A stretch of DNA of 64,000 nucleotides from Bacteroidota bacterium (GTDB taxonomy: Bacteria; Bacteroidota; Bacteroidia; J057; JADKCL01). Below, in pieces: positions 51,296-55,546 of the stretch (position 1 is the first letter of the stretch; the number at the start of each line of letters is the position of its first letter). The stretch is taken from the NCBI GenBank assembly GCA_016718825.1, contig JADKCL010000006.1, positions 57,568-121,567 on the forward strand. The letters are read 5' to 3'. A program made the position numbers and the translations under genes. The notes beneath the pieces were generated by a model, which saw nothing but the letters and a program-made list of their open reading frames with translations, was not told where the DNA came from and made no database searches.

Positions 51296-52913
51296 CCCGC
51301 TTTCCCGAAGGCAATTCCTGACCCGCGCCGGATTGGCAGGTTTGGGAATTTTGGCTTTGGGCGGAGGCGCTTGGTCCTGCAAAAACGAGGCGAATGCAAT
51401 CCCCGGCAGCCTTTTGGGGCCGGATGTTGAAAATGGACACCGTTTGCGGGAGGCCATGGCCCGTCCCAAGGTCGTCCAAACGATTAAAACGGACATACTG
51501 ATCGTCGGAGGCGGCGTTGCCGGACTCGCTGCTGCCTGGCAATTGCGCCAAAGGGGCATCCACGATTTTGTTTTGCTGGAAATGGAGGGCGAATGCGGCG
51601 GAAATTCCCGTGGCGGAACGCAAAACAGCTTGCGTCACCCTTGGGGAGCGCATTATTTGCCCGTTCCCGATGGCAACAACCTGCCTTTGATGCAGTTTTT
51701 GCAGGAAAACGCCGTCGTCAAAGGCTTTGATCTTGCAAATCGTCCCATTTTCAACGAATTGTACCTTTGCCATTCCCCGCAGGAGCGCCTGCTCATTCAT
51801 GGCACTTGGCAAAAGGGACTCGTTCCCAATCTTGGCGTTCCCGATGCCGAAAAGGCGCAAATCCAGCGGTTTTTTGCCGAAATAGACGCTTGGAAGCAAC
51901 GCATCGGCAACGATGGTAAGCCCGCTTTTGCGATTCCCGCCGATGAGAGTTCGCAGGATCCGGATTTCCTGCAACTGGATCTCCAAACGATGGCCGCTTG
52001 GTTGCTGGAAAAGGGACTGAATTCGGAGCATTTGCGCTGGTACGTCGACTATTGTTGCCGCGACGACTTCGGTTTGGGCGTGGACGAATGTTCGGCATGG
52101 GCGGGAATGCACTATTTCGCGGCGCGGACAGGTGGGGGAGCGAATGCAGAAAGCGGGGCGGTTTTGACGTGGCCGCAAGGCAACGGTTGGCTGACCGAAC
52201 GCTTGCGGGATGGACTTTCGAACGGAAAGCAGGTATTGCAGCGGAAAATGGTTTTCTCCTTGGAGAATATGCCGGAGGGTGTCGAAGCCTTGGCGCTCGA
52301 CCTCGACCGCGCGGGCGAATGTGTACGCGTGCAAGCGCGCGCGGCCGTGTTCGCGGGTCCGCAATACGTGGCAGCGCATGTGGTGCGCGGGCATTCGGGC
52401 CTGAATCCTGCCTTCACGTATGCGCCATGGATGGTCGCCAACGCACGTGTGAAACTCAGAGGAAATTCCGCGCTCAGCGACATCCATTGGGACAATGTCG
52501 CCTACGGCCGCCCGTCGCTCGGATATGTTTATGCCGGGCAGCAAGGTCTGCAAGGCAATATTCCCGAGGAGGCGATGCTCACTTGGTACGAACCACTGAC
52601 CGGAATGGCGCCCGTTGCGGCCCGCAAGCAGGCTTTGGAAAAGGACTACGCCCATTGGCAGGCGTATGTGATGGCAGATTTGGAGTTTATGCACCCCGGT
52701 TTGGTCGCGGATGTCAAGCAGCTCGATGTCTGGCGCTGGGGCCACGGCATGGTGCGGCCCGTTCCGGGAATGCTTACCGGCAAGCCGATCGCAGCTGCAC
52801 GATTGCCGATCGGGAACATCCACTTCGCCCACAGCGATCTCAGCGGCATTTCGATTTTTGAAGAGGCCTTTCACCGAGGGGTTTTGGCTGCAAATGCGGT
52901 TATTGCGTTGTGA
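51285..52913 (+). CDS. Tat-signal FAD/NAD(P)-binding oxidoreductase (amine-oxidase-like)
   Basis: The twin-arginine signal is SRRQFLTRAGLAGLGILALGGGAWSC. The Rossmann motif is DILIVGGGVAGLAAAWQL. Its start overlaps the end of the SpeE-like gene by 11 nt. Confidence 0.85.
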   Translation: MKNDPLSRRQFLTRAGLAGLGILALGGGAWSCKNEANAIPGSLLGPDVENGHRLREAMARPKVVQTIKTDILIVGGGVAGLAAAWQLRQRGIHDFVLLEMEGECGGNSRGGTQNSLRHPWGAHYLPVPDGNNLPLMQFLQENAVVKGFDLANRPIFNELYLCHSPQERLLIHGTWQKGLVPNLGVPDAEKAQIQRFFAEIDAWKQRIGNDGKPAFAIPADESSQDPDFLQLDLQTMAAWLLEKGLNSEHLRWYVDYCCRDDFGLGVDECSAWAGMHYFAARTGGGANAESGAVLTWPQGNGWLTERLRDGLSNGKQVLQRKMVFSLENMPEGVEALALDLDRAGECVRVQARAAVFAGPQYVAAHVVRGHSGLNPAFTYAPWMVANARVKLRGNSALSDIHWDNVAYGRPSLGYVYAGQQGLQGNIPEEAMLTWYEPLTGMAPVAARKQALEKDYAHWQAYVMADLEFMHPGLVADVKQLDVWRWGHGMVRPVPGMLTGKPIAAARLPIGNIHFAHSDLSGISIFEEAFHRGVLAANAVIAL

Positions 52914-52935
52914 TTTGGCCACAAAGACACGAAGA

Positions 52936-54400
52936 TTTCTATGATCAAATCCTAATTTAGACGCAAAAGATTATTTGGTGGACCTTTTTTCGTTTTATTT
53001 ATGACTTGCAGCTCAAAGCGCACGGCTACGCCATCCATCTGTGCCAACACAGCGGTCAATGGGATCTTTGAACCCCTCCCCCGAGGTTTGTTTGTTATGG
53101 TGTAATCAGGCTCTTTTTGATTCTGGATTCCAGTCAACCTGGAATCGCTCCTGCCTGCGAATGACGGAAAATGCCCTGCCTAACAGCTTATTCCTGATTA
53201 TGTTGATTGAAGCCATGGGTTCGACCCCTTCGGCTACTCTTCGTTGGTGATAGGTCTTCAACTCAAGGTCAAATCGTGATGCTGACCATGCGGCAGTGGT
53301 CAAGAGTGCCTTTGCAATCCGGTTGCCCATTCTTGAGATCTTGGTCTTCCCCTTGACACTTGTTCCCGAACTGTGTGGAAATGGTGCTACGCCACAGAAA
53401 CATGCAAATTGCTTGGCGTTGGCAAACAGGGTGAAGTTCTGTGTGAAAACGATGAGCATTACCGCTGTCTCGCGTCCGATCCCTTTAATGGACTTCAGGA
53501 GCTCCATATTTTGCTGGATTTCAGGCACCTCTGCTACAATTTCTGCGATCCTCTCCTCGATACTCACCTTGGATGCAACGAGTTCCTTCACCGCCTTTTC
53601 GGAAAATTTGCCTGTTCCTGCGGCAACCTTGTTTCCCATCTGGGCCGCCTCCCTGATGGGTACGGTCAAAATGCCGATGACCTTGACAAGTCGGTTGCGT
53701 TCTGAAAACAATGCCCGCAACTCGGCGATTTCGTGCGGTGGCCTTTTCCAAAGCTTGGCCTTGTCAATGAAACGACAAGCATAAACCGCAATCTGTCGTG
53801 CGTCAGCTTGGTCGCTTTTCCCACGGACGATCCCCAAACTCCGCTTTATGGCGGTAGGGTTTTCCATCCAAGTATTGAGACTTTTGGCATCACTCGCTTC
53901 CAAGAAAGGGGTGCAGTAATTGCCGGTATGTTCCAAGCAGAAAATCGTGTTTTTCACGTCAAACCCCTTGATTTTCTTCAGTTTCACCAACATCGACTTG
54001 ATTGCCGGTACAAGATTTTCAATCTCATACTCCTCAAGGATTTGGCGAGAGGAATCGCAGATCGCGATGTTCAACGTCAGTTTTGAGACGTCAATTCCCA
54101 CATAATGCGTAAATTGCTCTTGCATAATTATTTTGTTGTGTAGTCCAGCACTGACGGCGACCTCCAAGTCCTTTAATGGATCCGGCAAGATCCAAGTTTC
54201 TATCAGGAGCGTTCCGCAGTTTGGGGGGAGCGTCTAAATCTTCGTATAGGTCATACCTTTGGCACAAGAAGCCGCAGCTCCCCCCTGGACTACGATGAAT
54301 AAAACCAAGGATACAGAAGAATCTTCGGTATCACTTGGAAGAAACGTTATGGGAGCAAACTAAAGGACACAAAGTCCAAAAGCAGCTTTTTCTTCGTGCC
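52936..54400 (-). mobile_element. IS110-family insertion sequence (ends approximate)
   Basis: It contains the transposase CDS below plus about 165 nt of 3' and up to 275 nt of 5' non-coding sequence. Inverted copies of a CACGAAG/CACAAAG word repeat flank it (52918-52934 versus 54392-54416). TTTCTAT occurs at 52936-52942 and 54197-54203. Confidence 0.6.
53106..54125 (-). CDS. IS110-family transposase (DEDD-type recombinase)
   Basis: The preferred start is MQEQFTHYVGIDVSK, which carries the first Asp of the DEDD motif. LEHTGNY follows. The C-terminal Transposase_20-type segment reads LLKSIKGIGRETAVMLI...FCGVAPFPHSSG. Confidence 0.9.
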   Translation of the reverse strand: MQEQFTHYVGIDVSKLTLNIAICDSSRQILEEYEIENLVPAIKSMLVKLKKIKGFDVKNTIFCLEHTGNYCTPFLEASDAKSLNTWMENPTAIKRSLGIVRGKSDQADARQIAVYACRFIDKAKLWKRPPHEIAELRALFSERNRLVKVIGILTVPIREAAQMGNKVAAGTGKFSEKAVKELVASKVSIEERIAEIVAEVPEIQQNMELLKSIKGIGRETAVMLIVFTQNFTLFANAKQFACFCGVAPFPHSSGTSVKGKTKISRMGNRIAKALLTTAAWSASRFDLELKTYHQRRVAEGVEPMASINIIRNKLLGRAFSVIRRQERFQVDWNPESKRA

Positions 54401-54437
54401 TTAGTGTCTTCGTGGCAAGAAATAGAATAAAAATACC

Positions 54438-55546
54438 TTGACCCAAAGTTCAAATTCAATGCAACATAGGCAGCCCTGGATCTACAAATCCTGGGTAGAC
54501 CTGCTGTTCATTGTTGCGCCGGCGTTTCTGGCGACGTTGGTCGTTTTGCTGTTTCCGGGTTGGTTCGAAGATTCGGAGGCGATGCCACCATTGGCTTGGC
54601 TGCTATTGATCGTCGGTGTCGATGTCGCCCATGTTTACAGCACGCTTTGGCGCACCTATTTGGATCCGACGGAGTTTGACCGTCACCGCAACTTGCTCAC
54701 CTACACGCCCATTGCAGTTTGGGTCGGCGGAATTTTGCTGTATTCGATGGGGCCGATGGTTTTTTGGAGAGTATTGGCTTACCTCGCTGTTTTCCATTTT
54801 GTGCGGCAGCAATACGGCTTATGTCGGTCTACGCAAGACAGCAAAACCGACCAAAATGGGAGCGGTGGATCGATGCAACGACAATTTACGGACTCACGTT
54901 GTATCCGATTCTTTATTGGCATACCCACCTCCCACGGAATTTCAGCTGGTTTGTCGAAGGCGATTTTTTGGCTTTGAATGCCCCATGGCTGGCCGAGGTC
55001 GGATTCTGGCTGTATGGGTTGATCGCATTCGCCTATGTCGGCAAGGAATTGAAAATGAGCCTTCAACGGGGATTCAACCTTCCGAAGAACCTGATCGTTT
55101 TGGGCACGGGCTTGAGTTGGTATTGCGGAATCGTCTTGCGCAATGGCGACATGGCCTTCACCGCAACGAACGTCATCGCCCATGGTTTGCCCTATATCGC
55201 AATGATTTGGATCTATGGTCGCAAGAAGCATCCGCCCGAGGCAGCTGCCAAAGCCCCGAATGTCTGGATGAAATGGGGTTTCCGATTGGCATTTTTGCCA
55301 GCTTTTTTAGGCGTTTTGTTGGTTTTGGCCTATTTGGAGGAGGGGCTGTGGGAAGGGCTCGTTTGGCGTGACCATGCTGCGCTGTTTCCTTGGGCCGATA
55401 TTTTGCCATTCGTCAGCGAATCAGCCACCCTTGCGATCATCGTGCCTTTGTTGTCGTTGCCGCAAGTGACGCATTACATTGTGGATGGCTTTATTTGGAA
55501 GCTCCGGAAAAAGGATGCGGACTTGCGGGTGATTGATGAGAAGTGA
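54438..55546 (+). pseudogene. Polytopic membrane protein of unknown function, interrupted by a 1-nt frameshift near 54820
   Basis: ORF 54438-54977 is membrane-like up to ...LAVFHFVRQQYG. ORF 54719-55546 is sensible from ...MSVYARQQNRPKWERWIDATTIYGLTLYPILYWH onward. The frame change is -1. Confidence 0.6.

What the first reader, a model, noticed from the sequence alone, without database searches (positions are those of the whole stretch)
52914..54437. IS110-family IS whose structured 5' leader carries guide-like matches to its own insertion flank (candidate bridge RNA), sitting in a word-repeat palindrome
The transposase (53106-54125, minus strand) has IS110 hallmarks (YVGIDVSK, IKGIG). Up to ~275 nt upstream of its ATG has no ORF and is highly structured. 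A perfect 9-bp stem, GGGGGGAGC (54223-54231) / GCTCCCCCC (54277-54285), encloses a 45-nt loop with a small inner hairpin (AGGT/ACCT). The segment 54230-54245, spanning the last two stem bases and the start of that loop (GCGTCTAAATCTTCGT), is the exact reverse complement of two half-sites at the opposite end of the element. Those half-sites are ACGAAGATTT (52929-52938) and TTTAGACGC (52956-52964), separated there by 17 nt. A second stem-loop (CCAAGGATAC 54305-54314 / GTATCACTTGG 54328-54338) has a loop whose complement again contains CGAAGATT, identical to 52930-52937. TTTCTAT is present at both 52936-52942 and 54197-54203. The outer flanks GCCACAAAGACACGAAG (52918-52934) and CTTCGTGCCTTAGTGTCTTCGTGGC (54392-54416) are inverted versions of one host word repeat. 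The IS therefore appears to have landed inside a palindromic REP-like element, a known habit of IS110 members. IS110 recombinases are known to be programmed by an IS-encoded non-coding RNA with target-binding and donor-binding internal loops, and this leader has that appearance. An exact 10-mer match between a 275-nt leader and a ~25-nt flank is unlikely by chance (roughly 1e-2). An alternative reading is that the IS ends at about 54203. In that case 54204-54437 is host DNA, the match is simply the second arm of the host palindrome, and any bridge RNA would lie in the ~165-nt 3' end as in IS1111-type elements.
Basis: partly seen in the sequence, partly recalled or inferred. Interest (0 to 1): 0.7.

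Follow-up and report, generated by a model that had tools for sequence, protein, structure and literature searches.

The report
IS110 element with its bridge RNA
This is a 1.4-kb jumping gene of the IS110 family in a Bacteroidota genome whose upstream leader encodes a typical "bridge RNA" that reads both its own ends and the repeat it inserted into: a clear new example of a known mechanism.

Summary
Window 52935-54366 (minus strand) is an IS110-group insertion sequence of 1,432 bp. Its recombinase (53106-54125) keeps the IS621 catalytic residues. It sits between two 8-nt words of a REP-like palindrome. Related strains carry the same intergenic site empty, and removing 52935-54366 restores their architecture of 3+3 words and a 17-nt loop. 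The 241-nt left end belongs to the IS, because identical copies at five or more other sites keep it.

The leader folds into a 5' hairpin plus a three-way junction carrying two internal-loop modules. A covariance model built from this copy and one 56%-identical orthologue finds the same structure upstream of the recombinase gene in about 55 of 76 orthologue loci.

In orthologues the loop sequences track the flanks (permutation p<=1e-4 each):
- target loop 5' side = left target;
- target loop 3' side = complement of core C + 5 nt of right target;
- both handshake guides.

TTTCTAT is the left-donor guide. The second half-site and the first-hairpin loop match are not conserved and are at chance level. 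No RNA or activity was measured. This is a new member of a known kind.

The parts
52935..54366 (-). IS110-group insertion sequence, 1,432 bp counting one copy of the duplicated C. The core copies are at 54366 and 52934.
   Evidence: Identical copies with different flanks diverge outside these ends. Four short contigs start exactly at 54366. Empty orthologous sites L094-L097 match the window once 52935-54366 is removed.
53106..54125 (-). Recombinase gene, 339 aa, DEDD RuvC-like domain plus Tnp domain.
   Evidence: Pfam PF01548 and PF02371. Matches IS621 8wt6 at E = 6e-23 and ISCro4 9t56. D12, E65, D105, D108 and S253 are invariant in alignment A1 and align to IS621 D11, E60, D102, D105 and S241.
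54126..54366 (-). Left end (241 nt), which encodes the bridge RNA.
   Evidence: Conserved in all copies. The stretch 54126-54374 (left end plus 8 target bases) folds with z = -3.3.
54305..54338 (-). 5' hairpin (CCAAGUGAUAC...GUAUCCUUGG), followed by UUUUAUU.
   Evidence: Minimum-energy fold. The 56% orthologue L012 has a different hairpin at the same place. It lies outside the conserved model.
54140..54293 (-). [quoted passage not shown]
   Evidence: Model R1 gives full-length hits upstream of the recombinase gene in about 55 of 76 orthologue loci. 92% of cells are paired, against 60% when shuffled and 50% or less when slid.
54223..54284 (-). Target-binding module: basal stem, internal loop and apical hairpin (54248-54258).
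   Evidence: Helices 2 and 3. Variable loop sides are visible in alignment A4.
54261..54267 (-). Left-target guide UUGUGCC (5' side of the target loop). It has the same sense as the left target plus core, TTGTG(T/C)C.
   Evidence: 6/7 identical to 54372-54366, and 7/7 at site L007. Across the clade, the longest common substring is 6.74 for cognate pairs against 3.48 for non-cognate pairs, p<=1e-4.
54240..54245 (-). Right-target guide plus core pair, ACGAAG. It is complementary to CTTCGT (core C + TTCGT).
   Evidence: Exact match to 52929-52934 (I14). A compensatory A>G / T>C change is seen in L012. Across the clade, positions 1-5 match in 73-91% of cognate pairs against 26-42% of non-cognate pairs, p<=1e-4.
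54236..54239 (-). Handshake guide of the target loop, AUUU. It is complementary to the last 4 nt of the left donor (AAAT, 52935-52938).
   Evidence: I14. It changes with the donor end in subclades: AUAU with ATAT, AAUU with AATT, CAUU with AATG. The geometry is as described for IS621 (PMC11208158).
54151..54219 (-). Donor-binding module: basal stems, internal loop and apical hairpin (54178-54193).
   Evidence: Helices 4-6 and alignment A4.
54196..54203 (-). Left-donor guide AUAGAAAC. It has the same sense as the right terminus ATAGAAAT.
   Evidence: 7/8 identical to 52942-52935. The clade consensus AUAGAAAU is paired with CATAGAAAT termini. Subclades with AUAGAUAU or AUAGAAUG have ATAGATAT or ATAGAATG termini.
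54168..54175 (-). Right-donor guide UAAAGG plus handshake guide AC. It is complementary to GT|CCTTTA (54368-54361).
   Evidence: 8-nt exact match. A compensatory A>U / T>A change is seen in L012. Handshake guide against the last 2 nt of the left target scores 1.43/2 for cognate pairs against 0.74 for non-cognate pairs, p<=1e-4.
52935..53105 (-). Right end (171 nt), terminating in the left-donor motif CATAGAAAT (52935-52943).
   Evidence: Only the last ~59 nt are conserved with L012. It is not structured (z = -0.41). Most orthologues have the stop codon inside CATAGAAAT.
54367..54374 (-). Left target CTTTGTGT. This is host sequence: word 3 of the REP left arm, ACACAAAG on the + strand.
   Evidence: Empty-site comparison. 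Position 54367 is T or C among copies.
52927..52934 (-). Core C (52934) plus right target TTCGTGT. This is host sequence: word 2, ACACGAAG on the + strand.
   Evidence: At another site (L014) the right target reads TTTGTG, so this sequence is not part of the IS.
52918..54416 (.). Interrupted host REP-like palindrome. Left arm: GCCACAAAG ACACGAAG [IS] ACACAAAG. Loop: 54375-54391. Right arm: CTTCGTG CCTTAGTG TCTTCGTGGC (54392-54416).
   Evidence: Inverted repeats I3 and I5. Uninterrupted homologues exist at the same intergenic position in L094-L097. The same words flank other IS copies.

Best explanation
Window 52935-54366 is an IS110-group insertion sequence. Its left end encodes a bridge RNA and its recombinase is of the IS621 type.

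**RNA layout (read on the minus strand).** It has a 5' hairpin followed by a closing helix that holds two pseudo-symmetric modules.

**Target module.**
- The 5' side of the loop (UUGUGCC) has the sequence of the left target plus the crossover C. [quoted passage not shown] - The following AUUU pairs with the last four bases of the IS right end once strands are exchanged (handshake).

**Donor module.**
- AUAGAAA(C) matches the right terminus ATAGAAAT.
- UAAAGG pairs with the left terminus CCTTTA.
- AC pairs with the last two bases of the left target.

**Outcome.** Recombination between the circularised IS junction (...CATAGAAAT-C-CTTTAG...) and the target (...CTTTGTGT-C-TTCGTG...) inserted the element between two 8-nt words of a host REP-like palindrome, duplicating a single C.

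**Shown here:** boundaries, empty site, conserved structure, and guide/flank complementarity with covariation across orthologues.

**Inferred from IS621:** that the RNA is made, binds the recombinase, and directs strand exchange in this way.
For: **Boundaries and target**
- Copies at 99.7% identity or more occur at five or more distinct sites and share only 52935-54366 plus target-like words.
- Related strains have the same intergenic REP without the IS. Deleting 52935-54366 restores the same 3+3 words and 17-nt loop.

**Protein**
- Both Pfam domains are present.
- It is homologous to the solved IS621 and ISCro4 recombinases, with the DEDD and Ser residues conserved.

**RNA structure**
- The leader fold has z = -3.3.
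- A covariance model built from only two sequences finds full-length hits in the sense orientation. All but two lie directly upstream of the recombinase gene; the exceptions are second IS copies in L063 and L075. Hits occur in about 55 of 76 loci at 35-42% protein identity.
- All 38 pairs show double-sided changes, with 92% of cells paired.

**Guides**
- The geometry matches that published for IS621 (PMC11208160; PMC11208158).
- Two compensatory guide/DNA changes are seen against the 56% orthologue.
- Clade-wide, cognate pairs beat non-cognate pairs for the left-target guide, the right-target guide and the donor-loop handshake guide, each with p<=1e-4.
- Donor guides follow the termini in subclades.
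- A head-to-tail junction CATAGAAAT-C-CTTTAG is present in L075.
Against: - No transcript, promoter or activity was measured.
- Rfam 15 gave no hit in the region.
- No sigma-70-like promoter was found on the RNA strand.
- The Bacteroidota-type split promoter seen at orthologue junctions is degenerate in this element.
- The left-donor guide has a mismatch at its last position (C opposite T). The left-target guide has one mismatch at this site.
- The crossover overlap is a single conserved C rather than the CT dinucleotide of IS621, so the cleavage positions are not established.
- The permutation tests ignore phylogenetic relatedness of the orthologues. Alignment A4 is fitted to the model.
Confidence: 0.9

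Rival explanations
1. The IS ends near 54203, 54204-54437 is host DNA, and the leader/flank matches are just the second arm of the host palindrome.
For: The flanks do carry inverted word repeats (I3 and I5). The IS left-junction word CTTTGTG resembles the right-flank word CTTCGTG.
Against: Copies with unrelated flanks keep the sequence up to 54366. Empty sites show the host sequence resumes at 54367. The region 54140-54293 is conserved upstream of the recombinase genes in dozens of unrelated metagenomic loci.
Confidence: 0.01
2. An IS1111-type arrangement, in which the guide RNA lies in the 171-nt right end downstream of the recombinase gene.
For: The right end is unusually long for this clade: 171 nt, against the usual ~4-35 nt after the stop codon.
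Against: The right-end fold is no better than shuffles (z = -0.41). Only its last ~59 nt are conserved with L012. There is no model hit there. All four guide sets are accounted for in the left end.
Confidence: 0.02
3. The leader is a bridge-RNA-derived structure, but this lineage is impaired or expresses the RNA differently. Its junction promoter boxes and the last base of the left-donor guide have degenerated, so the copy in the window may be poorly mobile.
For: In 27 of 30 orthologues plus L012 the RE-LE junction reads (T)TTG-N20-TAGAyTTG. Here the -33 reads TTAG and the -7 box is one base short. The left-donor guide is AUAGAAAC against the terminus ATAGAAAT. A truncated relic exists (L011).
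Against: Five or more insertion sites carry nearly identical copies, which indicates recent transposition. The ORF is intact with all catalytic residues. L012 shares the same C in the left-donor guide.
Confidence: 0.1
4. The full 16-nt segment ACGAAGAUUUAGACGC is one functional guide that also pairs with the subterminal GCGTCTAAA (52956-52964), bringing the two right-end half-sites together.
For: Both matches are exact and contiguous in the RNA (I14 and I15).
Against: The orthologue L012 keeps UUUAGAUGC in the RNA but has GCGCCTTTA in its right end. UUUAGAC recurs as the loop tail in several orthologues whose right ends are only a few nt long, for example L016 and L038. Ten-nt matches arise in 15% of non-cognate pairs.
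Confidence: 0.04

Closest known systems
IS621 (E. coli) and its bridge RNA. IS110 group; Durrant et al. 2024 (PMC11208160) and Hiraizumi et al. 2024 (PMC11208158).
   Same: - DEDD + Ser recombinase (E = 6e-23 to 8wt6).
- RNA encoded in the left end, upstream of the gene.
- A 5' hairpin followed by a target module and a donor module, each made of stem, 5' guide, apical stem-loop and 3' guide.
- The 5' guides have top-strand sense and the 3' guides are complementary to the top strand.
- Handshake guides follow the 3' guides.
- The donor apical hairpin is longer than the target one.
- It inserts into REP-type repeats.
   Different: - Protein similarity to IS621 is distant: phmmer E = 6e-23.
- The overlap is one conserved C rather than the CT dinucleotide.
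- A 9-bp helix closes the two modules into a three-way junction, whereas IS621 has a flexible linker.
- The target-loop handshake guide reaches 4 nt.
- The host is Bacteroidota, and orthologue junctions carry a -33/-7 Bacteroidota-type split promoter instead of a sigma-70 one.
ISPpu9 / ISPpu10 of Pseudomonas putida. IS110 family, REP-targeting (listed: PMC12288879, bioRxiv 2026.03.19.712850).
   Same: IS110-family elements that insert at a fixed position in repetitive extragenic palindromes, guided by a bridge RNA.
   Different: The host phylum, the REP sequence (here 8-nt words CACNAAGN) and the guide sequences all differ. I did not compare sequences directly.
IS1111 group / seekRNA elements.
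   Same: Same recombinase family and the same principle of RNA-guided target choice.
   Different: Those carry the RNA in a long right end and have 7-17-bp subterminal inverted repeats (PMC11208160). Here the RNA is in the left end and the right end is unstructured.

Membership tests
IS110 family recombinase | N-terminal RuvC-like DEDD domain with the four acidic residues. | tested here: met
   PF01548 at 1e-14. D12, E65, D105 and D108 are invariant in 26 homologues and align to IS621 D11, E60, D102 and D105 (residues named in PMC11208158).
IS110 family recombinase | C-terminal Tnp domain with the catalytic serine. | tested here: met
   PF02371 at 2e-24. S253 is invariant and aligns to IS621 S241.
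IS110 family element | Site-specific insertion with no long terminal inverted repeats and only a short shared core instead of a multi-bp target duplication. | tested here: met
   The empty-site comparison shows that only one C is duplicated. The termini CCTTTAG... and ...ATAGAAAT are not inverted repeats.
IS110 group (as opposed to IS1111 group) | Left end longer than right end, with the guide RNA in the left end. | tested here: met
   Left end 241 nt against right end 171 nt. The conserved structure lies at 54140-54293, upstream of the gene. The right end is unstructured.
IS110 group (as opposed to IS1111 group) | No long (7-17 bp) subterminal inverted repeats. | tested here: inconclusive
   No inverted repeat of 7 bp or more lies next to the two termini. 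One 14-nt, 86% pair lies ~55-70 nt inside each end (I8) and was not followed up.
Bridge RNA | Two internal-loop modules (stem, 5' guide, apical stem-loop, 3' guide) after a 5' hairpin. | tested here: met
   Minimum-energy fold. Consensus with L012. Model hits in about 55 of 76 orthologue loci. Pair counts.
Bridge RNA | Target loop: the 5' side equals left target + core (top-strand sense) and the 3' side is complementary to core + right target. Both covary with insertion sites. | tested here: met
   In this element the matches are 6/7 and 6/6. Across the clade, p<=1e-4 for both.
Bridge RNA | Donor loop: the 5' side equals the end of the right end and the 3' side is complementary to the start of the left end. 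| tested here: met
   AUAGAAA(C) against ATAGAAAT. UAAAGG against CCTTTA, with a compensatory change in L012. Subclade co-changes are seen.
Bridge RNA | Handshake guides that pair with the non-cognate DNA after strand exchange. | tested here: met
   AUUU against AAAT of the donor. AC against GT of the target. Across the clade, 1.43/2 against 0.74, p<=1e-4.
Bridge RNA | Expressed as a ~150-250-nt RNA that binds the recombinase and is required for recombination. | not testable with these tools
   No expression or biochemical data are available. The promoter is not identified in this copy.
Bridge RNA | Match to a curated covariance model. | tested here: inconclusive
   There is no Rfam 15 hit in 52400-55000 at E<=10 apart from an unrelated weak ALIL match outside the IS. 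I could not establish whether Rfam holds a bridge-RNA family. The published IS110 models were not available.
CT-core IS110 elements (IS621-like) | A conserved CT core dinucleotide shared by donor and target. | tested here: not met
   The donor junction is AAAT-C-CTTTAG and the target is GTGT-C-TTCG. Across the clade only the C is constant.
REP-like host repeat (target) | An extragenic imperfect palindrome present in many copies in the genome. | tested here: inconclusive
   It is palindromic and intergenic, and is conserved at the orthologous site in other strains. The same words flank other IS copies. Only this one copy occurs in the 64-kb window, and the genome-wide count is not available.

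The most novel reading that the evidence does not exclude
The Bacteroidota clade to which this element belongs may be a distinct structural subclass of bridge-RNA systems. Its distinguishing features would be:
- the two binding modules locked together by a closing helix (three-way junction);
- a one-nucleotide crossover overlap (C) instead of CT;
- a recombinase stop codon embedded in the donor site;
- a Bacteroidota -33/-7 promoter split across the circle junction.

Within that clade, the window's lineage has acquired a ~165-nt right-end insert, lost the canonical promoter boxes and gained a 9-10-nt complementarity between the target-loop tail and the subterminal right end. Together these could form a lineage-specific regulatory pairing.
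Probability: 0.12. Interest if true: 0.5.

Novelty: new member of a known kind. Interest (0 to 1): 0.33.

Why it matters
The finding shows that the IS621 guide grammar can be read directly from sequence in an uncultured Bacteroidota element: left and right guides for target and donor, plus handshake guides.

It supplies about 55 natural orthologues with paired guide/target data. These have a compact recombinase of ~330-345 aa, very short right ends, and a fixed donor (CATAGAAAT-C-CTTTAG).

This widens the catalogue of candidate programmable recombinases. It also shows some variation on the IS621 plan: a single-base overlap, a closing helix, and a phylum-specific split promoter.

For genome annotation, it explains an intergenic insertion and defines a host REP family built from 8-nt words. 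It does not reveal a new mechanism.

Tried and rejected
- **Rfam scan of 52400-55000**. It returned only a weak ALIL match in the neighbouring gene, which is irrelevant.
- **Genome-contig scan with the protein**. It returned one distant locus and was of no use for boundaries.
- **Look-up of P0001**. Not on record.
- **First boundary model.** I placed a CT core with the IS starting at 54374 and ending at 52935. I abandoned it when orthologues showed left-end homology starting at CCTTTAG, and the left-target guides matched the bases just upstream. The empty sites settled it. An off-by-one error in my donor construct gave a spurious 10-nt match (ATAGAAACTT); I discarded it.
- **Three-bp mini-hairpin in the target-loop 5' side.** RNAalifold proposed it. 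I left it out of the model because that stretch is the variable guide.
- **Promoter searches.** The sigma-70 promoter and terminator scan found nothing on the RNA strand. A search for TAnnTTTG in this element's junction or integrated context also found nothing.
- **Right end as an RNA gene.** Rejected.
- **Second half-site and first-hairpin loop as guides.** Rejected as non-conserved or at chance level.
- **L075 as a circular intermediate.** The two copies are only 94% identical, so it is a head-to-tail pair or a chimeric assembly, not proof of a circle.
Full report
**1. Observation**

- The minus-strand ORF 53106-54125 matches both IS110 Pfam domains.
- The ORF list shows an upstream TTG start. 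Homologues, however, begin at the ATG (MQEQFTHYVGIDVSK).
- The 249 nt upstream of the ATG (54126-54374) fold with z = -3.3.
- The 9-bp stem, the inner hairpin, the two exact 10-nt inverted matches to 52929-52938 and 52955-52964, the TTTCTAT pair and the inverted flank words are all real (I3, I5, I14, I15).
- Rfam has nothing here.

**2. Boundaries**

The exact protein occurs on 12 contigs.
- Aligned to the window, these contigs share 99.7-100% identity over a block that stops at about 54366/54374 on one side and about 52928-52936 on the other. Beyond the block, several contigs continue into unrelated sequence. A JGI copy adds one more site.
- Four short contigs start exactly at 54366.
- Because all sites carry similar words next to the IS, the copies alone could not fix the exact junction.

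Two further lines fixed it.
- *Orthologues.* In them, left-end homology begins at CCTTTAG(A/T)(T/C)TTG, and the right end stops at CATAGAAAT followed by a C.
- *Empty sites.* The flanking FAD-oxidoreductase gene has close homologues in other Bacteroidota assemblies. There it is followed ~50-90 nt later by the next gene, with no IS. That intergenic stretch reads GCCACGAAG GCACTAAG NCACGAAG, a 17-nt loop, then CTTNGTG CCTTNGNG TCTTCGTGGC.
- Removing 52935-54366 from the window gives GCCACAAAG ACACGAAG ACACAAAG, a 17-nt loop, then CTTCGTG CCTTAGTG TCTTCGTGGC. That is the same 3+3 word palindrome.

The element is therefore 52935-54366. It lies between words 2 and 3 of the left arm, and a single G/C (52934 and 54366) is duplicated.

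In IS orientation:
- target: ...GGA CTTTGTGT|C|TTCGTGT CTTTGTGGC
- predicted circle junction: ...GATCATAGAAAT|C|CTTTAGTTTGC...

**3. Protein**

The recombinase matches the solved IS621 (8wt6, E = 6e-23) and ISCro4 (9t56) proteins. D12, E65, D105, D108 and S253 are invariant among 26 homologues. They align with the IS621 catalytic D11, E60, D102, D105 and S241 named in PMC11208158.

**4. RNA structure**

In IS orientation, numbering nt 1 at window 54374, the minimum-energy fold has these parts:
- a hairpin at nt 37-70 (54305-54338);
- a 9-bp helix (nt 82-90 with 227-235) that encloses two modules;
- module B (54151-54219): stems, an 11-12-nt loop side on each strand, and a GGAUC...GGAUCC hairpin.

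The closest orthologue (56% protein identity; L012/L013) aligns over this region and shows compensatory pairs in the closing helix.

A covariance model built from just these two sequences found full-length sense-strand hits.
- Hits occurred in about 55 of the 76 other loci searched. These were fetched by protein similarity of 35-42%.
- All but two hits lie immediately upstream of the recombinase ATG. The two exceptions belong to second IS copies in L063 and L075.
- On the resulting alignment, 92% of cells are paired, against 60% after shuffling and 50% or less with slid partners. All 38 pairs show changes on both sides.
- The alignment is fitted to the model, so these numbers lean towards the structure. 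Full-length hits starting from a two-sequence model are nevertheless strong evidence on their own.

**5. Guides**

The published geometry is as follows. [quoted passage not shown] The 3' side is complementary to core + right on the top strand (PMC11208160). The 3' side is followed by handshake bases that pair the incoming non-cognate left half after strand exchange (PMC11208158).

In this element:

| Module | Segment | RNA | DNA partner | Match |
|---|---|---|---|---|
| A, 3' side | right-target guide + core | ACGAAG (54245-54240) | CTTCGT (52934-52929) | complementary, 6/6 |
| A, 3' side | handshake guide | AUUU (54239-54236) | AAAT, last bases of the right end (52938-52935) | complementary, 4/4 |
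| A, 5' side | left-target guide | UUGUGCC (54267-54261) | TTGTGTC (54372-54366) | 6/7; 7/7 at the L007 site, which has C at 54367 |
| B, 5' side | left-donor guide | AUAGAAAC (54203-54196) | right terminus ATAGAAAT (52942-52935) | 7/8 |
| B, 3' side | right-donor guide + handshake | UAAAGG + AC (54175-54168) | GT|CCTTTA (54368-54361) | complementary, 8/8 |

**6. Covariation of guides with DNA**

Against L012, two changes are compensated:
- ACGAAG/CTTCGT becomes GCGAAG/CTTCGC;
- UAAAGG/CCTTTA becomes UUAAGG/CCTTAA.

Across the clade:
- The longest leader/downstream complementarity sits at the same leader position (-120 to -137 from the ATG) in about 17 of 49 loci. Its sequence differs in each.
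- With the register fixed by the CATAGAAAT anchor, the five bases after the core C match the right-target guide in 73-91% of cognate pairs, against 26-42% of non-cognate pairs. Positions 6-7 carry no signal. Permutation p<=1e-4, n = 44.
- The left-target guide shares on average 6.7 contiguous bases with the 16 nt upstream of the left end, and up to 11. Non-cognate pairs share 3.5 (p<=1e-4, n = 39).
- The two bases after the right-donor guide complement the last two bases of the left target: 1.43/2 against 0.74 (p<=1e-4, n = 37).
- Donor guides and termini are nearly constant (AUAGAAAU with CATAGAAAT). They change together in two subclades (ATAGATAT, ATAGAATG), and the target-loop handshake bases follow.

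These permutation tests do not correct for shared ancestry. Many distinct guide/target combinations contribute, however.

**7. What is not supported**

- *Second half-site.* The match TTTAGACGC 52956-52964 against loop UUUAGACGC is absent from L012. UUUAGAC recurs as the loop tail in several orthologues whose right ends are only a few bases long, such as L016 and L038. Ten-nt matches arise in 15% of non-cognate leader/downstream pairs.
- *First-hairpin loop.* The CGAAGAUU in the first hairpin's loop is also absent from L012, and that loop self-pairs in the fold.
- *Right end.* It is not structured (z = -0.41) and only its last ~59 nt are conserved. There is therefore no IS1111-type RNA there.

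**8. Differences from IS621**

- Only one base (C) is common to donor and target at the crossover, in this element and across the clade. I therefore do not file it with CT-core elements, and the cleavage stagger is unknown.
- The two modules are closed by a covarying 9-bp helix (helix 1). IS621 instead has a flexible linker, and modules from two RNA molecules can serve one complex.
- In most orthologues the recombinase stop codon is the TAG inside CATAGAAAT. The window's element and L012 carry 167-219 extra bases there.
- I cannot tell whether these variations are already described among the thousands of orthologues surveyed by Durrant et al.

**9. Promoter (inference only)**

The host is a Bacteroidota MAG.
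- Reconstructed RE-LE junctions of 27 of 30 orthologues, and of L012, read (T)TTG-20 nt-TAGAyTTG.
- This matches the Bacteroidetes -33 TTTG / -7 TAnnTTTG motifs (quoted in PMC2483708), split across the junction. It parallels the sigma-70 promoter that IS621 reconstitutes on circularisation.
- In the window's element both boxes are degenerate. No alternative was found.
- How this copy's RNA is transcribed is therefore open.

**10. Verdict**

This is an IS110-group element with a left-end bridge RNA, inserted in a REP-like palindrome. It is a new member of a known kind, with modest structural variations. Expression and activity remain untested.

Noticed in passing
Loci L015-L093 (reconstructed RE-LE junctions). 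Window 52944-52960 and 54355-54366.: In 27 of 30 orthologues and in L012, joining the right end to the left end creates (T)TTG-20 nt-TAGAyTTG. That is a Bacteroidota-type -33/-7 promoter split across the circle junction. In the window's element both boxes are degenerate: TTAG at the -33 position, and TAGTTTGC at the -7 position.
   Followed up: partly
Window 52944-53105. L012:1800-2018.: Most orthologues end the recombinase ORF with the TAG inside the donor motif CATAGAAAT. The window's IS and L012 have ~165-220 extra, poorly conserved, unstructured bases between the stop codon and that motif. Their origin and role are unknown.
   Followed up: partly
L075:1140-1300 (MWWC01002963.1): Two 94%-identical IS copies lie head to tail, joined as CATAGAAAT-C-CTTTAGATTTG. 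This is a donor-type junction. It could be a tandem insertion or an assembly of mixed circular forms.
   Followed up: partly
L063:1572-1640: Two copies of an orthologous IS are separated only by five tandem 8-nt words (CTTGCGGT and variants). These words are its target, which suggests repeated insertion into one word array.
   Followed up: no
L011:2293-2988 (GCA_964268625.1): A truncated relic of the window's IS, 97.6% identical and covering window 54347-53651 only. It lies next to a Por_Secre_tail gene, in the same assembly whose orthologous REP site (L097) is empty.
   Followed up: no
Window 54392-54416 (+ strand): The intact right arm of the palindrome contains TTAGTGT|C|TTCGTG on the + strand. 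This is a second near-match to the IS target (right target perfect, left target 5/8) and is unoccupied here.
   Followed up: no
Window 52989-53002 and 54295-54308: A 14-nt, 86% inverted repeat lies ~55-70 nt inside each IS end (I8). It is possibly chance. I did not check it in orthologues.
   Followed up: no
Window 54653-54695 (+): A weak, sub-threshold Rfam ALIL-pseudoknot match (18.7 bits against a gathering score of 50) inside the downstream host gene. It is almost certainly chance.
   Followed up: no
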